64,000 bases of DNA from an uncultured Alphaproteobacteria bacterium (lineage in GTDB: Bacteria; Pseudomonadota; Alphaproteobacteria; CAAGCB01; CAG-977): contig CALYBD010000001.1 of assembly GCA_944393745.1 (NCBI GenBank), positions 72,628 through 136,627 on the forward strand, in the 5' to 3' direction. The translations under genes were made by a program, and so were the position numbers. Numbering within the stretch: the first letter of the stretch is position 1; each line of letters starts with the position of its first letter. The notes below the pieces were generated by a model that saw only the letters and a list, made by a program, of their open reading frames with translations, ran no database searches and was not told the DNA's origin. Shown here in pieces: positions 48,415 to 53,010 of this stretch.

Positions 48415-48702
48415 TTTTTAAACCTTTCGTATATTCTTAACAGCCTGATCATAAATGAATGACTGTATTTTTTAAATATGGCCAAAAGGTCTGCTTTTTT
48501 TTAAACCAAAATGCGCATCACGGAAAAGGGATGGAACGATAGTTTTTACCGAGTGATGTTTGTTTATACCAACATATTGATATTATTGAATAAATAGGCG
48601 TTAATGAAGGTTGTGAGGACAAACTGAAATATACTTTCCTTTGGCGAAAAGCCCTTCCGGAAGTTACCTCCGTGTTACCTCAAATCGAAAGGATAAACGC
48701 CT

Positions 48703-50022
48703 ATGAATATCAATAAATCTTTCATCAACAGCCTGTCTTTTACGAGCAAGGAAACGACCTATTTCGACGATAGCGTCAAGGGCTTCGGCGTCCGCGTCTG
48801 CAAATCGTCCGCGAGTTATATTCTGATGTATCGCAACGCCTACGGGCGGCAAAAGAAGCTGACCATCTGTAAAACAACGCTGATGATGCCGACCGAAGCG
48901 CGGGACGAAGCCAAGCGGCTTTTGGCTTTGGTCGTTCAGGGCAAAGACCCGGAACAGGAAAAACTGGAACGCCGCAAAGAATTGACGATCGGCGAACTGG
49001 CGGACGAGTTCCTTAACTTCAAACTGCCGTTTCTGAAACAAGCGACACGGAACTCGTATCAATCGGCGGTCAAAAAGCACATCAAGCCGGATTTGGGCAA
49101 AATACCGATCAAAGCGTTCAGACATTCGGACGCTCAACGGTATTATAACGACTTGCTGATGGGAAAAGGGATAACGACCTTTCACTCCGAAAAAGAAGAC
49201 TTCCGGCATATCGGATCGGCGAACACGGTTCTCGTCCCTTTGCGGTGTATGTTCGATTACGCCCGTTCTTTGGGACTGGTGAACTTCAATCCGGTCAAGG
49301 AGTTGCAGACTTTCCCCAATCCGTGCAGTTACGAGTTCTTTGACGAAGCGGAAATCCGAAAGCTCGGCAGAATCATAAACACCTGCAATTACGTCAATCC
49401 GTATTATCTGAATGTTATCCGTTTGCTTGTAATGACGGGATGCCGGAAAAAGGAAATCGAAAATCTAAAATGGTCGTATATCGACTTCAAGCATCAGTTG
49501 TTCCTCTTTCCCGACACGAAGACGGGCGCGCAGGACAGACCGTTCGGCATAGCGGTCAAGGAGTTGCTTCTTCAAATGAAAGACGCCGTTCAGCCGCAGA
49601 GTAATGACAAGTTTGTGTTTCCGAAATCGGGGAAAGGAACGGACGTTGCCAAGAACTTCTTTCAGGTTCACGTCAAATCAAAGCCGGAGTTTGCGAAGAA
49701 GAAAGTTCACAGCTTGCGGCACACGTTTGCGTCGATGGCGGCGGCGATCGGCTTTCCGGAAGCGGTCGTGGCGAAGCTATTGGGACACAAGCAACAGAGT
49801 ATGACCGCGCGATACACGCACTTGACGGAAGACGCCGTTCAACAGGCGGCGGATAAGATAACGCGAAGGATTGCCGCGTTGCTGAATATCCCCGAACAAG
49901 GCGCCAAGCCGGAGGACGTGAAGATGTTTCCGCGGGGGATTCACCTTTACAAGCTTCATCTTGTGAAGTCGGAGAAATATCCGCGTCCGATACTCGCCCG
50001 AAAACAGAGGGCGGCGGGGTGA
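48703..50022 (+). CDS. int: Tyrosine-type site-specific integrase (phage integrase family)
   Basis: N-terminal arm-binding/SAM-like region, then a catalytic domain with R...HxLRH...Y (HSLRHTFAS ... RYTHL). Confidence 0.85.
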   Translation: MNINKSFINSLSFTSKETTYFDDSVKGFGVRVCKSSASYILMYRNAYGRQKKLTICKTTLMMPTEARDEAKRLLALVVQGKDPEQEKLERRKELTIGELADEFLNFKLPFLKQATRNSYQSAVKKHIKPDLGKIPIKAFRHSDAQRYYNDLLMGKGITTFHSEKEDFRHIGSANTVLVPLRCMFDYARSLGLVNFNPVKELQTFPNPCSYEFFDEAEIRKLGRIINTCNYVNPYYLNVIRLLVMTGCRKKEIENLKWSYIDFKHQLFLFPDTKTGAQDRPFGIAVKELLLQMKDAVQPQSNDKFVFPKSGKGTDVAKNFFQVHVKSKPEFAKKKVHSLRHTFASMAAAIGFPEAVVAKLLGHKQQSMTARYTHLTEDAVQQAADKITRRIAALLNIPEQGAKPEDVKMFPRGIHLYKLHLVKSEKYPRPILARKQRAAG

Positions 50023-50191
50023 TCCGAGAGGGGCGAAGTCCCTCTGGCAAGGGCGCAAAAGTTTTGCGCTAACTTGCTATGGTAGATTTTTTCTGCCGCG
50101 GCAAAGAACCGGAAACAAGGGAATACCGATGTAAAAAGATGCTACGAATGAATACGGACGAATACGAATGTAAACGACCGAATACGAACGT

Positions 50192-50878
50192 TTACATTAA
50201 GTTTTTCGCGTATGCGATAAACGGATAATCGTCGGCTCCTTCTTTGATTTTACCGAGATTTTCTTTTGTTCCGATTATCTTAGCCATCACGGCCAAACAG
50301 GCGGCATCAAGCAAATCATCAAATTTGAAAAAAGCGTCCTTTTCCTGTTTTGAGGCTTCTCGCAAAAGTTTTTCAATTCCGGCAACGCCAAGATATTCTT
50401 TCAAAATCAAAAGTCGTTCGGCTTGTCCCGCACCTGTTTTCTTGGGAAAAATCTTTTTGCTGTTGTTTAGCAGTTCAAAGCAAAACTCCGGATGAGATTC
50501 CCAAAAATGAAAAACGTCAGGATTGTTTCCTGCCGCGAACTCTTTTACTTCATAAATTTTGTGCATAATTGCTTTCGTTTGTTCTGACATCGTAATCGTA
50601 TCTTTGATACGGTCATATTCCTCTTCCGTAGGAGGTAAGTTTTCGGGAAGAGAAAAAACAGAATTTTTATTCCCTTTCATAGCATTACGCAACGCTCCGT
50701 CAGGTCTTTTTTTTAAGCCGATCGGCATATCAATCAGAATAATGTCTTTCGGGTTGCTTCTGTTAAAATCAAAGCCTGTTAATTTTTCTTTGACCGTAAC
50801 GTTTGCCACGCCATATTCATTTATAAAAACGGCGATCCATCCGGCAGGACACCCGTCAATCCCCACATATTCAGTCAT
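50192..50878 (-). CDS. DUF429-family protein (predicted RNase H-like fold)
   Basis: N-terminal GIDGCPAGW hallmark. 8-bp overlap with the upstream HD gene. Confidence 0.55.
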   Translation of the reverse strand: MTEYVGIDGCPAGWIAVFINEYGVANVTVKEKLTGFDFNRSNPKDIILIDMPIGLKKRPDGALRNAMKGNKNSVFSLPENLPPTEEEYDRIKDTITMSEQTKAIMHKIYEVKEFAAGNNPDVFHFWESHPEFCFELLNNSKKIFPKKTGAGQAERLLILKEYLGVAGIEKLLREASKQEKDAFFKFDDLLDAACLAVMAKIIGTKENLGKIKEGADDYPFIAYAKNLM

Positions 50879-51425
50879 TTATCAATTCCTTGTATAAAGC
50901 TAAAAACTCATTTTGCACATCTTCGAAAGGACGTATTTGCGATGACAACATAATATGGAGCATTTGGCCGTTATCCGGAATAGGATTTGCTTTCACATCA
51001 TTCTTAAAATAATTTTCAAATTCCCAATACAGCATTGTATCGTCAATCGTGTGCCATAATGCCTGTTCATCGAAAAACGGTTCTATGCAGTGCGAAGCAA
51101 GAGCCGTTAAAATAGCTTTTTCCAATCTGTCTTCGTTTTCCATATATGCTTGTCCTTTAATGGGACGAGGAATATCGCACATATACGCTTCGGAAGCATC
51201 GTGAAGAAGACAACAAAGCTGAATCGTTTTATCGTATCCTCGTGCAGCGGCTTCTTTACAGCAATTTATGGAATGTTCTGCAACGGAATAAAAACGGTTG
51301 AAATGACCGTTTGCACGACATAATAACGACAATGCGTGCGCTATGTCCTCAATTTTGACGGTCGTCGGATCAGGGGTGAGGATATTAAACGATTCTCCGG
51401 TAAAAGTGGAGATAATATTTTTCAT
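50871..51425 (-). CDS. HD-domain phosphohydrolase, YfbR-like (5'-deoxynucleotidase-type)
   Basis: H..VAEHS ... LLHDASE ... D metal-binding motif order typical of YfbR-type HD hydrolases. Confidence 0.6.
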   Translation of the reverse strand: MKNIISTFTGESFNILTPDPTTVKIEDIAHALSLLCRANGHFNRFYSVAEHSINCCKEAAARGYDKTIQLCCLLHDASEAYMCDIPRPIKGQAYMENEDRLEKAILTALASHCIEPFFDEQALWHTIDDTMLYWEFENYFKNDVKANPIPDNGQMLHIMLSSQIRPFEDVQNEFLALYKELIND

Positions 51426-51479
51426 TGGTTTCCCTAAAATAAAAGTTCGGTGCGGGAAGATATTCCCGCACCGAAAGCG

Positions 51480-51716
51480 TTATTTTTTCTTTTTCAGTTC
51501 TTCAGCCACGGCTTTGTTGAAATCTTTTTGCAGCTGATCCATTTTCTTGCGCTTTTCGTTCATTTTCTTCGTATAATCATCAAGCTTCTTTTGTGAATTC
51601 TGCGCCTGTTTCATATAGTTGTCATAGGTTCGTTTTTCCGAATCATACTGACGCTGAACGCTGTCGATTTCACGCTGTAAAGAATCCATATTTTTCTTGA
51701 TTTGTTCACTTGTCAT
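51480..51716 (-). CDS. Small (79 aa) all-coiled-coil protein, unknown function
   Basis: aggagt RBS then ATG MTSEQIKK. Heptad-rich K/E/Q sequence. The longer track ORF (to 51875) runs into the structured repeat and is probably an artefact. Confidence 0.45.
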   Translation of the reverse strand: MTSEQIKKNMDSLQREIDSVQRQYDSEKRTYDNYMKQAQNSQKKLDDYTKKMNEKRKKMDQLQKDFNKAVAEELKKKK

Positions 51717-51794
51717 TTTTTTACTCCTATTAAAGTTAACGACAAAAACAAGATAATTCGTATATACGTCAAAATATGTCATATTAAATTTCTT

Positions 51795-52145
51795 CGTATA
51801 TACAAAGCCCGCCTTAAAAGGCGGGCGGATGTTCAAACACCGTTTATCTATGGACGGCACAGCGGTTTCGCGCATAGCCTTATAACGCCGTCATTGTTAG
51901 AAAGAAAAGATGTATACTCTAATTTAGTAAACAGGCATTTAGCCTGTTTATGTCCGATAGAGAGTTGCAACTCTCTATCGGACGGCAGTTGAACGAACGG
52001 CGCCGACATAGAGATCCGCCCGTTCGGGACAGATTTGCGGCGTATAATTTGTTAGTCGCCATACACAATGCGACATAGATAAAAGGGTGTTTGAAGCCCT
52101 ATGCCTTTCAACAAAGCATATCTGATTTTTAACCAACTTTTTTCA
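51795..52145 (-). ncRNA. Copy A of a structured noncoding element (candidate leader/sRNA, minus sense) upstream of the coiled-coil gene
   Basis: Homologous to copy B, sharing blocks GGATGTTCA.A.ACCGT, GCCGACAT..CCGCC, AGTCGC..GCGAC and AAAAGGGT..CCCT. In minus sense it ends in a gcccgcc/ggcgggc hairpin plus T-run. Calling them repeats is firm; calling them RNA is inferred. Confidence 0.45.
51952..51983. repeat. Perfect 32-bp palindrome (16-bp arms, no spacer) inside copy A
   Basis: gtccgatagagagttg|caactctctatcggac. Absent from copy B. Confidence 0.9.
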
Positions 52146-52557
52146 TAAAGCAAATTAAATTTATCAATGGGATTACAAGAGGAAAAATAAGAGTCAGCAA
52201 AAGTGGCAGGATACGCAATTCGTAATACGAACGCTTGCCGGTGAACTCTGCGAGGCATTTGCCGACGGCAAAGAGGAAAAAAACGCACGGTCGAATTTTT
52301 TATTTTTGCCATCTATCAGCCGGATGATTTTCCGTTGCTAAAAATCCGTTCTTGTTTTACTTTAACAACAGAGGGAATAGTCCATAAAATTATTCTCTCA
52401 TCGGAAATCTTCGGAAGATTTCGGCAAAGGACTTTTTTCTGTTACCTCGCTGTTACCTGCTGCCGTTTTCGATAATATCAAGAAACATCAAAAACATCGT
52501 TTTTATGTTTCACTTCAACAAGTTGTAAAATACCATCAAAACCTTAAACCCGTTGTA

Positions 52558-53010
52558 TTACAAAAGATCAAACATTCCTGTCTGACGCAAAGCTTCGCCC
52601 AATACAACGGCCCCCGAAAGGGCAACATTAACGGATCGGGCTTCCGGACGCATCGGAATACGCAACCGCGCGTCCGCCGCCTGATGCACGAAATCCGGTA
52701 CTCCCGCGCTTTCGCGCCCCAACAGCAAAATATCATCGCGTCTAAAAGAAAATTTCTGATACGGCTCGGATCCCTTTGTCGTCAATAAAACGATCCGCCC
52801 CTGATGAGCGGCATAAAATTTTTCCCACGAATCATGGCGGGTATAATCGACAATATCCAGATAATCCATCCCTGCCCGACGCATTTTTTGATCGTTAAAA
52901 ATAAACCCGCACGGTTCGATAATATCCACGGGAATGTCAAAACACGCCGCCAAACGCATCAATGTACCCGTATTCTGCGGTATATCCGGTTCGTAAAGAG
53001 CTAAACGCAT
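52558..53010 (-). CDS. trmL: tRNA (cytidine/uridine-2'-O)-methyltransferase TrmL (SpoU family)
   Basis: MRLALYEPDIPQNTGTLMRLAACF N-terminus. About 150 aa SPOUT. Confidence 0.8.
   Translation of the reverse strand: MRLALYEPDIPQNTGTLMRLAACFDIPVDIIEPCGFIFNDQKMRRAGMDYLDIVDYTRHDSWEKFYAAHQGRIVLLTTKGSEPYQKFSFRRDDILLLGRESAGVPDFVHQAADARLRIPMRPEARSVNVALSGAVVLGEALRQTGMFDLL

What the first reader, a model, noticed from the sequence alone, without database searches (positions are those of the whole stretch)
50192..51425. Overlapping HD (YfbR-like) phosphohydrolase + DUF429 (RNase H-like) gene pair as islet cargo: candidate defence or anti-defence module
The two genes overlap by 8 bp, so they are translationally coupled. 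They sit in low-GC mobile DNA next to a tiny coiled-coil gene and a structured RNA. YfbR-type HD enzymes dephosphorylate dNMPs. Nucleotide-pool manipulation (dNTPases, dCTP deaminase) is a known anti-phage strategy. DUF429 is predicted to have a nuclease-type RNase H fold. I do not know this specific pairing as a described defence system. If functional, it may be a novel nucleotide-depletion-plus-nuclease module.
Basis: inference. Interest (0 to 1): 0.6.

Follow-up and report, generated by a model that had tools for sequence, protein, structure and literature searches.

The report
Mobile HD phosphohydrolase plus RuvC-like nuclease pair
A 4-kb jumping element in a gut alphaproteobacterium carries, as its only conserved cargo, an overlapping pair of genes (a small nucleotide phosphatase and a RuvC-like nuclease) whose fused version is widespread but unstudied and sits among anti-phage defence genes in other bacteria, which makes the pair a credible but untested candidate for a new conflict system.

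Summary
HD (50871-51425, -) and DUF429 (50192-50878, -) overlap by 8 bp. They are the cargo of a 4.06-kb tyrosine-integrase islet (48507-52566; cargo GC 0.40, window 0.46) found at six or more chromosomal sites in related gut Alphaproteobacteria MAGs.

The main new result is that the pair is the split, colinear form of a widespread HD-DUF429 fusion protein: at least 120 clusters of about 410-450 aa, mostly named Clostridia and other Firmicutes. Those fusions lie in defence islands or mobile elements, next to WYL regulators, McrBC, GmrSD, Azaca (ZacABC), restriction-modification genes, TIR proteins, toxin-antitoxin pairs, and repeatedly Macro and ADP-ribosylglycohydrolase genes. No PADLOC model matches them.

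The HD protein keeps the YfbR-type HDASE...D..P.P.K motif. Its nearest solved structure is Atu1052 (function unknown), and it is not a YfbR orthologue. DUF429 models as a RuvC-like RNase H fold with all conserved acidic residues. The one characterised DUF429 domain (M. smegmatis RelZ) cleaves RNA:DNA hybrids.

In decayed islet copies the cargo stays intact under purifying selection while the integrase is lost. A housekeeping salvage operon is excluded. A defence role is supported only by context in distant relatives, and the mechanism is inferred. An ADP-ribose-linked repair role and an R-loop-removal role remain live rivals.

The parts
48507..52566 (.). Integrative islet of about 4.06 kb, the unit that is shared between different insertion sites
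   Evidence: Homology with copies at five other chromosomal sites (L001/L004/L005, L002, L003, L016) stops at 48507 and 52565/52566. A sixth site is seen in L275/L277. Both ends carry CAAAA (TTTTG on the gene strand), a weak candidate for the crossover core. The right end supplies the last two codons and the stop codon of the flanking SpoU methylase gene.
48703..50022 (+). Tyrosine integrase, intact at 439 aa
   Evidence: Pfam Phage_integrase 1e-21, Arm-DNA-bind_3, Phage_int_SAM_3; phrog_1 3e-54. It is fragmentary or deleted in copies L001-L005.
50143..50190 (+). Five repeats with 10-bp periodicity (ACGAAYGWAW) between the integrase stop and the DUF429 stop; possible arm-type binding sites
   Evidence: Repeat family D1 and the sequence itself. 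Their function is inferred only.
50192..50878 (-). DUF429 protein, 228 aa: predicted RuvC-like (RNase H fold) metal-dependent nuclease
50871..51425 (-). HD-domain phosphohydrolase, 184 aa, of the YfbR/Atu1052 clade
   Evidence: phrog_318 1e-40. Invariant H30, H51, H75-D76, E79 and D128 are present. Model pLDDT 93; nearest PDB entry 2gz4 (Atu1052, function unknown), then weak matches to DatZ, YfbR and OxsA. A family profile aligns the HDASE...D..P.P.K motif to YfbR, including its catalytic Glu72.
51446..51475 (.). Strong bidirectional terminator-like hairpin (13-bp stem) between the coiled-coil gene and the HD start codon
   Evidence: Terminator scan. It implies that HD-DUF429 is expressed by read-through or from a promoter inside the upstream gene (inference).
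51480..51716 (-). Small lysine-rich coiled-coil protein, 78 aa, specific to this islet family
   Evidence: Called as 78 aa in most copies. Only coiled-coil noise hits in Pfam, PADLOC and NCBIfam. It is rearranged or missing in L002 and L005, so it is dispensable. It is not homologous to the small ORFs upstream of the fusions.
51717..52566 (.). Conserved non-coding leader of the islet, interrupted here by a copy-specific 119-bp palindromic insert (51895-52013)
   Evidence: Conserved at 91-97% in the other copies, except for the insert. The insert folds at -58.5 kcal/mol, z -7.7. No Rfam match.

Best explanation
The two genes encode one two-part enzyme. One part is a RuvC-like, metal-dependent nuclease (DUF429). 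The other is a small HD nucleotide phosphohydrolase with YfbR-type catalytic residues. The overlapping genes would make them in matched amounts, and they probably act as a complex, because in many Firmicutes the same two domains are fused in the same order in one polypeptide. The pair is the selected cargo of a minimal integrase islet. I consider it most likely a conflict module that protects the host and the islet against phages or other invading DNA. In this reading the nuclease cuts invader nucleic acid or its replication or recombination intermediates (branched DNA, R-loops or RNA:DNA hybrids). The HD enzyme dephosphorylates the released or precursor (deoxy)nucleotides, so they cannot be reused. 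Shown here: gene structure, mobility, domain identities, intact catalytic motifs, purifying selection, the fusion architecture, and the defence-island context of relatives. Inferred: physical complex formation, substrates, the order of action, and any protective phenotype.
For: Fusion evidence:
- HD-DUF429 fusions or adjacent pairs occur in 8 of the 80 best genomic HD loci outside the window clade, and in one viral contig.
- At least 120 fusion clusters of about 386-552 aa (most 410-450) were found.
- 30 fusions and 2 adjacent pairs were among 80 metagenome loci.
- The gene order in the window (HD, then DUF429) matches the domain order in the fusions.

Context of the fusions:
- WYL plus GmrSD (L037).
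- HsdM, Macro and ADP-ribosylglycohydrolase (L052).
- McrBC (L063, L176, L194).
- Azaca ZacABC directly downstream (L201, L218, L232 and others; ZacA-C E 1e-93 to 1e-280).
- TIR/ThsB and type I restriction-modification (L183/L184).
- Toxin-antitoxin pairs (L177).
- Relaxase plus a restriction-modification system (L179).
- Neighbours of fusion loci hit 288 PADLOC families. Neighbours of matched HD-only loci hit 27.
- 14 of 21 long metagenome fusion loci carry one or more of the recurrent neighbours WYL, McrBC, Azaca, Macro, ARH or GGDEF.

Evidence from the window's islet family:
- Catalytic residues are intact.
- The folds are as predicted.
- The cargo stays intact with dN/dS 0.11-0.34 while the integrase decays.
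- Copies occur at six or more insertion sites.
- DUF429 is almost absent from phage genomes (1 of 50,697 records). This argues for a cellular or island gene rather than a phage gene.

Literature:
- A DUF429 domain (RelZ) cleaves RNA:DNA hybrids and R-loops and is inactive when separated from its partner domain (PMC7591505).
- Nucleotide dephosphorylation is a known immune effector activity (CARF-HAD, PMC12715507).
Against: There is no phenotype and no biochemistry for any HD-DUF429 protein. In the window the islet lies among housekeeping genes (porin, YggS, SpoU, YchF, Pth, L25). Its defence context is therefore borrowed from relatives that share only 30-35% (DUF429) and 43-50% (HD) identity. 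A distance tree does not place the window clade specifically with the fused forms. The defence-island evidence is a sample of about 30 loci, some of them related to each other. The control comparison counts redundant PADLOC models, not genes. Close HD homologues in other alphaproteobacterial MAGs (L017, L018) lack DUF429. Many DUF429 genes of the fused subfamily stand alone (25 of 57 informative loci), so the pairing is frequent but not obligatory. The HD family is common in phages (246 records), which also fits a counter-defence or nucleotide-metabolism role. WYL regulators and the RelZ data equally fit a DNA-damage response.
Confidence: 0.42

Rival explanations
1. The module processes ADP-ribose-linked nucleic acids or nucleotides. 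DUF429 would excise or cut ADP-ribosylated (or otherwise end-blocked) DNA or RNA. The HD enzyme would clear the resulting modified nucleotides or ADP-ribose-derived phosphates. The role would be repair or detoxification against ADP-ribosyltransferase toxins such as DarT-like enzymes, or clearance of NAD-derived immune signals. That would make it immunity, regulatory or anti-defence cargo rather than an effector.
For: Macro-domain proteins (336-341 aa) and ADP-ribosylglycohydrolase (often with DUF6508) flank the fusions in at least four different gene orders: L052/L084/L097, L060/L181, L176, and L201-type loci. DUF429 is fused to NUDIX in many proteins (PMC3985635). It is adjacent to a LigT 2H phosphoesterase in L012-L014. 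It lies next to TIR/ThsB genes in L183/L184. All of these partners act on ADP-ribose derivatives or on nucleic-acid ends.
Against: The window islet carries no Macro, ARH, NUDIX or ADP-ribosyltransferase gene. The Macro/ARH loci include several related islands, so there are few independent observations. The HD protein resembles dNMP- and dNTP-acting enzymes (YfbR, DatZ, OxsA), not known ADP-ribose hydrolases. The published survey of NAD/ADP-ribose conflict systems does not mention an RNase H-type partner.
Confidence: 0.2
2. The pair is a stress or DNA-damage-response RNase H-type enzyme like the DUF429 domain of mycobacterial RelZ. It would remove R-loops or RNA:DNA hybrids (or resolve branched DNA) during replication stress. 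The HD partner would tidy up nucleotides. The islet would spread it as a fitness gene for the host, or use it for its own integration and excision intermediates.
For: The DUF429 domain of RelZ hydrolyses RNA:DNA hybrids and R-loops and is UV-induced (PMC4429107, PMC7591505). WYL regulators directly upstream of many relatives belong to a class that also controls DNA-damage regulons (my own knowledge: PafBC, DriD). The fold is closest to Holliday-junction resolvases.
Against: The distribution is patchy, mobile and multi-site, and the gene sits among McrBC, Azaca and restriction-modification genes. That is not expected for a repair function. The pairing with a nucleotidase has no obvious role in R-loop removal. 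The 2014 statement that DUF429 has a conserved, non-mobile context does not hold for this clade.
Confidence: 0.18
3. The pair is phage- or mobile-element-derived offensive or anti-defence cargo. The HD enzyme would destroy host or immune nucleotides, and the nuclease would attack host or competitor DNA for the benefit of the element.
For: The HD family is abundant in phages: 246 phage records and at least 583 viral contigs. One fusion lies on a contig classed as viral (L097). Another sits beside a relaxase on a conjugative element (L179). The cargo rides on an integrase element.
Against: DUF429 is essentially absent from phage genomes. L097 shares its gene arrangement (Macro, fusion, 222-aa ORF, 255-261-aa ORF) with the genomic locus L084, so it is not clearly phage. 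The cargo is kept intact after the integrase decays, which points to a benefit for the host.
Confidence: 0.1
4. The pair is an ordinary housekeeping dNMP salvage or nucleotide-pool operon.
For: YfbR itself is a housekeeping 5'-deoxynucleotidase, and the HD protein shares its catalytic motif.
Against: The pair sits on a mobile islet at six or more sites. It is absent from close relatives' equivalent loci. Its GC is atypical. Its relatives lie in defence islands. It fails the YfbR equivalog model.
Confidence: 0.03

Closest known systems
HD-DUF429 fusion proteins of Clostridia and other Firmicutes (database entries named 'DUF429 domain-containing protein'; one JGI name is 'predicted RNase H-like nuclease/5'-deoxynucleotidase YfbR-like HD superfamily hydrolase')
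   Same: The same two domains in the same order, with all catalytic residues shared. HD identity is 43-50% and DUF429 identity 30-35%.
   Different: They are one polypeptide rather than two overlapping genes. They sit in defence islands under WYL regulators or next to Macro, ARH and Azaca genes, not on a 4-kb integrase islet. They are uncharacterised.
RelZ / MS_RHII-RSD of Mycobacterium smegmatis (DUF429 domain fused to a (p)ppGpp synthetase)
   Same: The only DUF429 domain with reported activity (RNA:DNA hybrid and R-loop hydrolysis). It is also coupled to a nucleotide-metabolising partner, and its domains are inactive when separated (PMC7591505, PMC4429107, PMC3153485).
   Different: The partner is a RelA/SpoT synthetase, not an HD hydrolase. 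It is chromosomal and stress-induced. I did not test its sequence relation to the window protein.
E. coli YfbR 5'-deoxynucleotidase and its structural relatives DatZ and OxsA; Atu1052 (PDB 2gz4)
   Same: Small all-helical HD fold. The HDASE...D..P.P.K motif aligns with YfbR, including its catalytic Glu72. Atu1052 is the nearest solved structure (Foldseek E 9e-8, TM about 0.75).
   Different: It fails the YfbR equivalog model (13.8 against 122 bits). TM-scores to YfbR, DatZ and OxsA are only about 0.5. Atu1052 has no known function, so the substrate cannot be transferred.
RuvC and other Holliday-junction resolvases of RNase H-like clade D
   Different: Sequence identity is 8-18%. DUF429 has a long helical insertion and extra conserved His-Pro-Glu and DDxxDA motifs. 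No evidence for dimeric junction resolution.
Nucleotide-targeting immune effectors (dGTPase and dCTP-deaminase depletion systems; CARF-HAD phosphatases of type III CRISPR)
   Same: The concept of starving a phage by destroying nucleotides. CARF-HAD effectors show that dephosphorylation can be an immune output (PMC12715507).
   Different: Unrelated folds or families. No PADLOC dGTPase or dCTP-deaminase model matches. No sensor domain is evident here.
Phage T5 pre-early pair A1 (host DNA degradation) and Dmp (5'-deoxynucleotidase)
   Same: Functional analogy only: DNA breakdown coupled to dNMP dephosphorylation, which makes it irreversible.
   Different: Tested here and not homologous. T5 Dmp matches phrog_415, and hhalign probability against the HD family is 0.05%.

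Membership tests
DUF429 (Pfam PF04250; RNase H-like clade D) | Score above the Pfam gathering threshold | tested here: met
   100.8 bits against a cut-off of 23, residues 6-202.
DUF429 (Pfam PF04250; RNase H-like clade D) | Conserved acidic and His residues of the putative active site | tested here: met
   D8, D50, H129, E131, D187, D188 and D191 are invariant in 29 diverse members and present in the window protein.
DUF429 (Pfam PF04250; RNase H-like clade D) | RNase H-like / RuvC-like fold | tested here: met
DUF429 (Pfam PF04250; RNase H-like clade D) | Nuclease activity | not testable with these tools
   Reported only for the RelZ DUF429 domain (PMC7591505).
YfbR-type 5'-deoxynucleotidase (NCBIfam NF003009 equivalog) | Score above the equivalog cut-off | tested here: not met
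   13.8 bits against a cut-off of 122, local match at residues 66-92 only.
YfbR-type 5'-deoxynucleotidase (NCBIfam NF003009 equivalog) | H...HD...D metal ligands plus the catalytic Glu of the HDASE motif | tested here: met
   H30, H75-D76, E79 and D128 are invariant. A family profile aligns 'LhDaseaYlsDitrPvk' to YfbR 'YHDASEVLTGDLPTPVK', E 0.0015. The E72A mutant chain scores lower.
YfbR-type 5'-deoxynucleotidase (NCBIfam NF003009 equivalog) | dNMP-specific phosphatase activity | not testable with these tools
   The nearest structure, Atu1052, has no assigned function.
Pfam HD_3 (PF13023) / PHROG phrog_318 | Significant profile match | tested here: inconclusive
   HD_3 scores 21.3 bits, just below the 22.5 cut-off. 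phrog_318 matches at E 1e-40 over residues 3-183, but its functional label is untested and does not derive from T5 Dmp.
Any known or candidate anti-phage system in PADLOC-DB v2.0.0 | Match of either protein, or of a fusion homologue, to a system model | tested here: not met
   No hit at E <= 1 for HD or DUF429. No hit at E <= 1e-3 for two fusions.
Defence-island gene (guilt by association) | Neighbourhood enriched in known defence genes | tested here: met
   Met for the fused relatives (against 76, 82-84, 97). Not met for the window islet itself, whose flanks are housekeeping genes. No genome-wide statistic could be computed.
Integrative mobile element (tyrosine-recombinase islet) | Intact integrase, defined ends, the same unit at different chromosomal sites | tested here: met
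   439-aa integrase with arm-binding, SAM-like and catalytic domains. Sharp homology ends at 48507 and 52566. Six or more insertion sites. The att core is only a 5-bp repeat, and no excisionase was found.
Translationally coupled operon | Start codon of the second gene overlapping the stop codon of the first | tested here: met
   8-bp overlap at 50871-50878. It is replaced by a 4-nt gap in L188 and L189. Coupling itself is inferred.

The most novel reading that the evidence does not exclude
HD-DUF429, fused or split, is a previously unrecognised and self-contained anti-phage or anti-mobile-element system. Its RuvC-like nuclease and YfbR-like nucleotidase act together on invading nucleic acid, possibly on modified or ADP-ribosylated DNA, given the recurrent McrBC, GmrSD, Azaca, Macro and ARH neighbours. 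The window shows its minimal form, mobilised as the only conserved cargo of a 4-kb integrase islet in gut Alphaproteobacteria.
Probability: 0.3. Interest if true: 0.72.

Novelty: new variant of a known kind. Interest (0 to 1): 0.58.

Why it matters
DUF429 is a large, widespread RNase H-like family with almost no functional data, and the small phage-type HD family has thousands of members. This work shows that the two are functionally linked: they are fused in many Firmicutes and form an overlapping pair here. It also shows that the fusion is a regular resident of defence islands, next to Azaca, McrBC, GmrSD, WYL regulators, Macro and ADP-ribosylglycohydrolase genes. That gives a concrete and cheap hypothesis to test: a two-gene, 1.2-kb construct. 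If the pair proves protective, it would add a nuclease-plus-nucleotidase design to the known defence repertoire. It would also assign a biological role to DUF429. And it would provide an unusually small natural vehicle for moving a defence gene, a 4-kb integrase islet with loose target choice. If the ADP-ribose link is the true one, the pair would point instead to a new branch of nucleic-acid ADP-ribosylation repair.

Tried and rejected
- **T5 Dmp as homologue of the HD protein.** I recalled it from memory and then tested it. It is unrelated (hhalign probability 0.05%, phrog_415). I keep it only as a functional analogy.
- **tRNA or tmRNA attachment site.** None found. The islet inserts at short TTTTG-containing sites, here at the 3' end of SpoU.
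- **Rfam family for the 'structured RNA'.** None at gathering or E <= 1 thresholds. The structure is a copy-specific palindromic insert.
- **Empty-site comparison.** Every contig with the identical SpoU protein already carries the islet, so I took the ends from other insertion sites instead.
- **Genome scan with the diverse DUF429 alignment.** I used the HD alignment and a fusion-type DUF429 alignment instead.
- **Single-protein scans of viral contigs.** Nothing for DUF429 and one weak HD locus.
- **Distance trees of both domains.** The window clade is a long branch with no resolved affinity to fused or unfused forms. I therefore make no claim about the direction of fusion or fission.
- **The small coiled-coil protein as a conserved third component.** Rejected. 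It is not homologous to the small ORFs upstream of the fusions, and it is missing or rearranged in some islet copies.
- **The unknown 172-aa partner of stand-alone DUF429 genes as a cryptic HD.** Rejected (hhalign probability 0.16%; no PDB match).
- **Plasmid collection.** No fusions. HD and DUF429 occur only separately.
- **Housekeeping salvage operon.** Rejected (see the rival explanations).
Full report
**1. Observation**

The minus strand carries an ORF of 184 aa at 50871-51425 and an ORF of 228 aa at 50192-50878. They share 8 bp (ATGACTGA), so the start of the second gene overlaps the stop of the first.

The downstream protein is a clear DUF429 member (PF04250, 100.8 bits against a cut-off of 23). 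The upstream protein scores just under the Pfam HD_3 threshold (21.3 against 22.5). It matches phage family phrog_318 at E 1e-40 and has 5,298 database homologues. Neither protein matches any PADLOC model, even at E <= 1.

The organism is an uncultured gut alphaproteobacterium. Identical proteins carry MAG names such as 'Alphaproteobacteria bacterium' and 'Acetobacter sp.', and the closest genome is UBA2903.

**2. The islet**

The pair lies between an intact tyrosine integrase (48703-50022, +) and a 78-aa lysine-rich coiled-coil gene (51480-51716, -).

BLAST against copies of the same cassette elsewhere shows that homology stops sharply at 48507 and 52565/52566. The mobile unit is therefore about 4.06 kb. 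The cassette sits at six or more different chromosomal sites:
- the window site, also seen in L186-L193;
- the site shared by L001, L004 and L005;
- L002;
- L003;
- L016;
- L275/L277.

Both ends carry TTTTG, a weak candidate core. Here the right end supplies the last two codons and the stop codon of the SpoU methylase gene. Cargo GC is 0.397 against 0.459 for the window.

In most other copies the integrase is reduced to fragments, and in L003 it is deleted. HD and DUF429 stay intact in all of them. dN/dS is 0.11-0.22 for HD where divergence is informative and 0.20-0.34 for DUF429. The cargo is therefore maintained by selection independently of mobility.

A 13-bp-stem bidirectional terminator (51446-51475) separates the coiled-coil gene from the HD start. 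The coiled-coil gene is rearranged or absent in L002 and L005. The constant core of the islet is HD plus DUF429.

It is found only in the copies at this site and matches no Rfam family.

**3. The pair is a split form of a widespread fusion**

I scanned one genome per species with an alignment of the HD family and took the 80 best loci.
- Six encode the HD domain fused in frame to DUF429: Clostridium viride, Lacrimispora defluvii and four Firmicutes MAGs.
- One Carboxydocellales MAG has an overlapping split pair.
- One viral contig also carries a fusion.

A search with one fusion returned at least 120 clusters of about 386-552 aa (most 410-450), all carrying PF04250. One is named by JGI 'predicted RNase H-like nuclease/5'-deoxynucleotidase YfbR-like HD superfamily hydrolase'.

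A metagenome scan anchored on the fusion-type DUF429 domain gave 30 fusions, 2 adjacent pairs and 25 stand-alone genes among the informative loci.

The domain order in the fusions (HD, then DUF429) matches the gene order in the window. The link is frequent but not obligatory:
- The nearest alphaproteobacterial HD homologues outside the islet clade (L017, L018) lack DUF429.
- Distance trees do not resolve whether the window clade derives from a fusion.

DUF429 is also fused to NUDIX and, in actinobacteria, to a RelA/SpoT synthetase (PMC3985635, PMC3153485). Its habitual partners are therefore nucleotide-metabolising enzymes.

**4. What the two proteins are**

*HD protein.* The AlphaFold model has pLDDT 93. 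Its nearest solved structure is Atu1052 (2gz4, function unknown; E 9e-8). Matches to DatZ, YfbR and OxsA are weak. A family profile aligns the HDASE...D..P.P.K motif with E. coli YfbR, including its catalytic Glu72 (E 0.0015). H30, H75-D76, E79 and D128 are invariant. The protein fails the YfbR equivalog model. It is best described as a YfbR-like nucleotide phosphohydrolase of unknown substrate.

The PHROG label 'dNMP phosphatase' carries no experimental weight. I checked my recollection that it might derive from T5 Dmp, and it does not. T5 Dmp belongs to phrog_415 and is unrelated.

The only experimental data for the family concern RelZ of M. smegmatis. Its DUF429 domain hydrolyses RNA:DNA hybrids and R-loops and is inactive when separated from its partner domain.

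**5. Context of the relatives**

Neighbours of the fusions include:
- WYL regulator plus GmrSD (L037);
- HsdM, a Macro-domain protein and ADP-ribosylglycohydrolase (L052; L084 and L097 have the same gene arrangement);
- McrBC (L063, L176, L194);
- toxin-antitoxin pairs (L177);
- a relaxase and an LlaJI-type restriction-modification system (L179);
- Macro, an SLFN-like helicase and a serine recombinase (L181);
- type I restriction-modification, three TIR proteins and Nmad2 (L183/L184).

In the metagenome set, one recurrent arrangement is Macro - x - ARH/DUF6508 - fusion - ZacA - ZacB - ZacC. ZacABC is the Azaca system (PADLOC E 1e-93 to 1e-280), which cleaves phage T4 DNA in vitro (bioRxiv 10.1101/2025.07.10.664194). 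A second arrangement is WYL - unknown 165/172-aa protein - (HD-)DUF429.

Fourteen of 21 long fusion loci carry at least one of the recurrent neighbours WYL, McrBC, Azaca, Macro, ARH or GGDEF. The 113 neighbours of 11 fusion loci hit 288 PADLOC families. The 104 neighbours of 11 HD-only control loci hit 27. This comparison is crude, because PADLOC models are redundant.

The fusion itself has no PADLOC model. No paper in the library links HD, DUF429 and defence. DUF429 is almost absent from sequenced phages (1 of 50,697 records), whereas the HD family is common there (246 records).

**6. Interpretation**

The best-supported reading is a two-activity conflict module: a RuvC-like nuclease working with a nucleotide phosphohydrolase, kept by its hosts and spread by a minimal integrase islet. 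I rate this at about 0.4. The defence context is borrowed from distant relatives, and nothing is known biochemically.

Two rivals are serious.
- **ADP-ribose-linked repair or signal clearance.** The fusions recur with Macro and ARH genes in several gene orders. DUF429 is also fused to NUDIX, adjacent to LigT, and next to TIR genes. All of these act on ADP-ribose derivatives or on nucleic-acid ends.
- **R-loop or DNA-damage response.** The RelZ data, the WYL regulators and the resolvase-like fold all fit this.

A phage-style offensive or anti-defence role is less likely, because DUF429 is not a phage gene and the cargo outlives the integrase.

**7. Novelty and score**

The families and even the fusion architecture are already in databases, and candidate defence genes are numerous. 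But the functional link between the two families, the consistent defence-island residence of the fusion, the ADP-ribose neighbourhood and the 4-kb mobile minimal form appear to be undescribed, and they are cheap to test. I rate the finding a new variant of a known kind, with interest 0.58.

Noticed in passing
window 51895-52013: A 119-bp insert with a perfect 32-bp palindrome (51952-51983). It folds at -58.5 kcal/mol (z -7.7). It is present only in islet copies at the SpoU site and absent from copies at five other sites. It may be a miniature inserted element. No Rfam match and no second copy in the window.
   Followed up: partly
window 50143-50190: Five repeats with 10-bp periodicity (ACGAAYGWAW) between the convergent ends of the integrase and DUF429 genes. 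They may be arm-type binding sites for the integrase's Arm-DNA-bind_3 domain.
   Followed up: no
window 51446-51475: A strong bidirectional terminator hairpin lies only about 20 nt upstream of the HD start codon. HD-DUF429 expression may therefore depend on read-through or on a promoter inside the coiled-coil gene, which suggests a low or regulated expression level.
   Followed up: no
window 50192-50878 compared with L002-L004 8001-8642: Mosaic divergence. Islet copies that differ by 2% in HD differ by 14% in DUF429. The 213-aa allele replaces or deletes residues about 70-95 (a variable insertion after strand 4). This suggests recombination or diversifying change in the nuclease.
   Followed up: partly
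L001-L005, L016, L276 (integrase side of the islet): The integrase is intact (439 aa) only in window-type copies. Elsewhere it is internally deleted, fragmentary or absent while the cargo remains intact. The islet appears to be in the process of domestication.
   Followed up: yes
L201, L202, L218, L222, L232, L234: A recurrent Firmicutes cassette: Macro (336 aa) - unknown 279 aa - ... - ADP-ribosylglycohydrolase/DUF6508 - HD-DUF429 - ZacA - ZacB - ZacC. It may be an extended Azaca operon with ADP-ribose-processing accessory genes.
   Followed up: partly
L176 5526-6023; L209 5456-5974; L211, L213, L216, L217: An unknown protein family of 165-172 aa sits directly upstream of DUF429 or HD-DUF429, often after a WYL regulator. 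An unknown 469-aa family sits downstream of DUF429 in several loci. Neither has a Pfam or PDB match.
   Followed up: partly
L012-L014 (P0028 loci); P0027-P0050: Other DUF429 partners: an SH3-domain gene that overlaps the DUF429 start by 8 bp, a LigT 2H phosphoesterase immediately downstream, and N-terminal NUDIX fusions next to IS66 transposases.
   Followed up: no
L274 124-858 (phage T5 dmp): T5 Dmp, the classical phage 5'-deoxynucleotidase, is unrelated to the HD family that PHROGs labels 'deoxyribonucleoside 5' monophosphate phosphatase' (phrog_318). That label should not be read as experimentally grounded.
   Followed up: yes
L016 1854-2570; L025 1945-3208: The UBA2903 DUF429 gene has two in-frame micro-duplications (ILIDMP x2, KIFP x2). 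The Carboxydocellales locus is an HD-DUF429 fusion split into two overlapping ORFs, which shows that fused and split states interconvert (or reflects a sequencing error).
   Followed up: no
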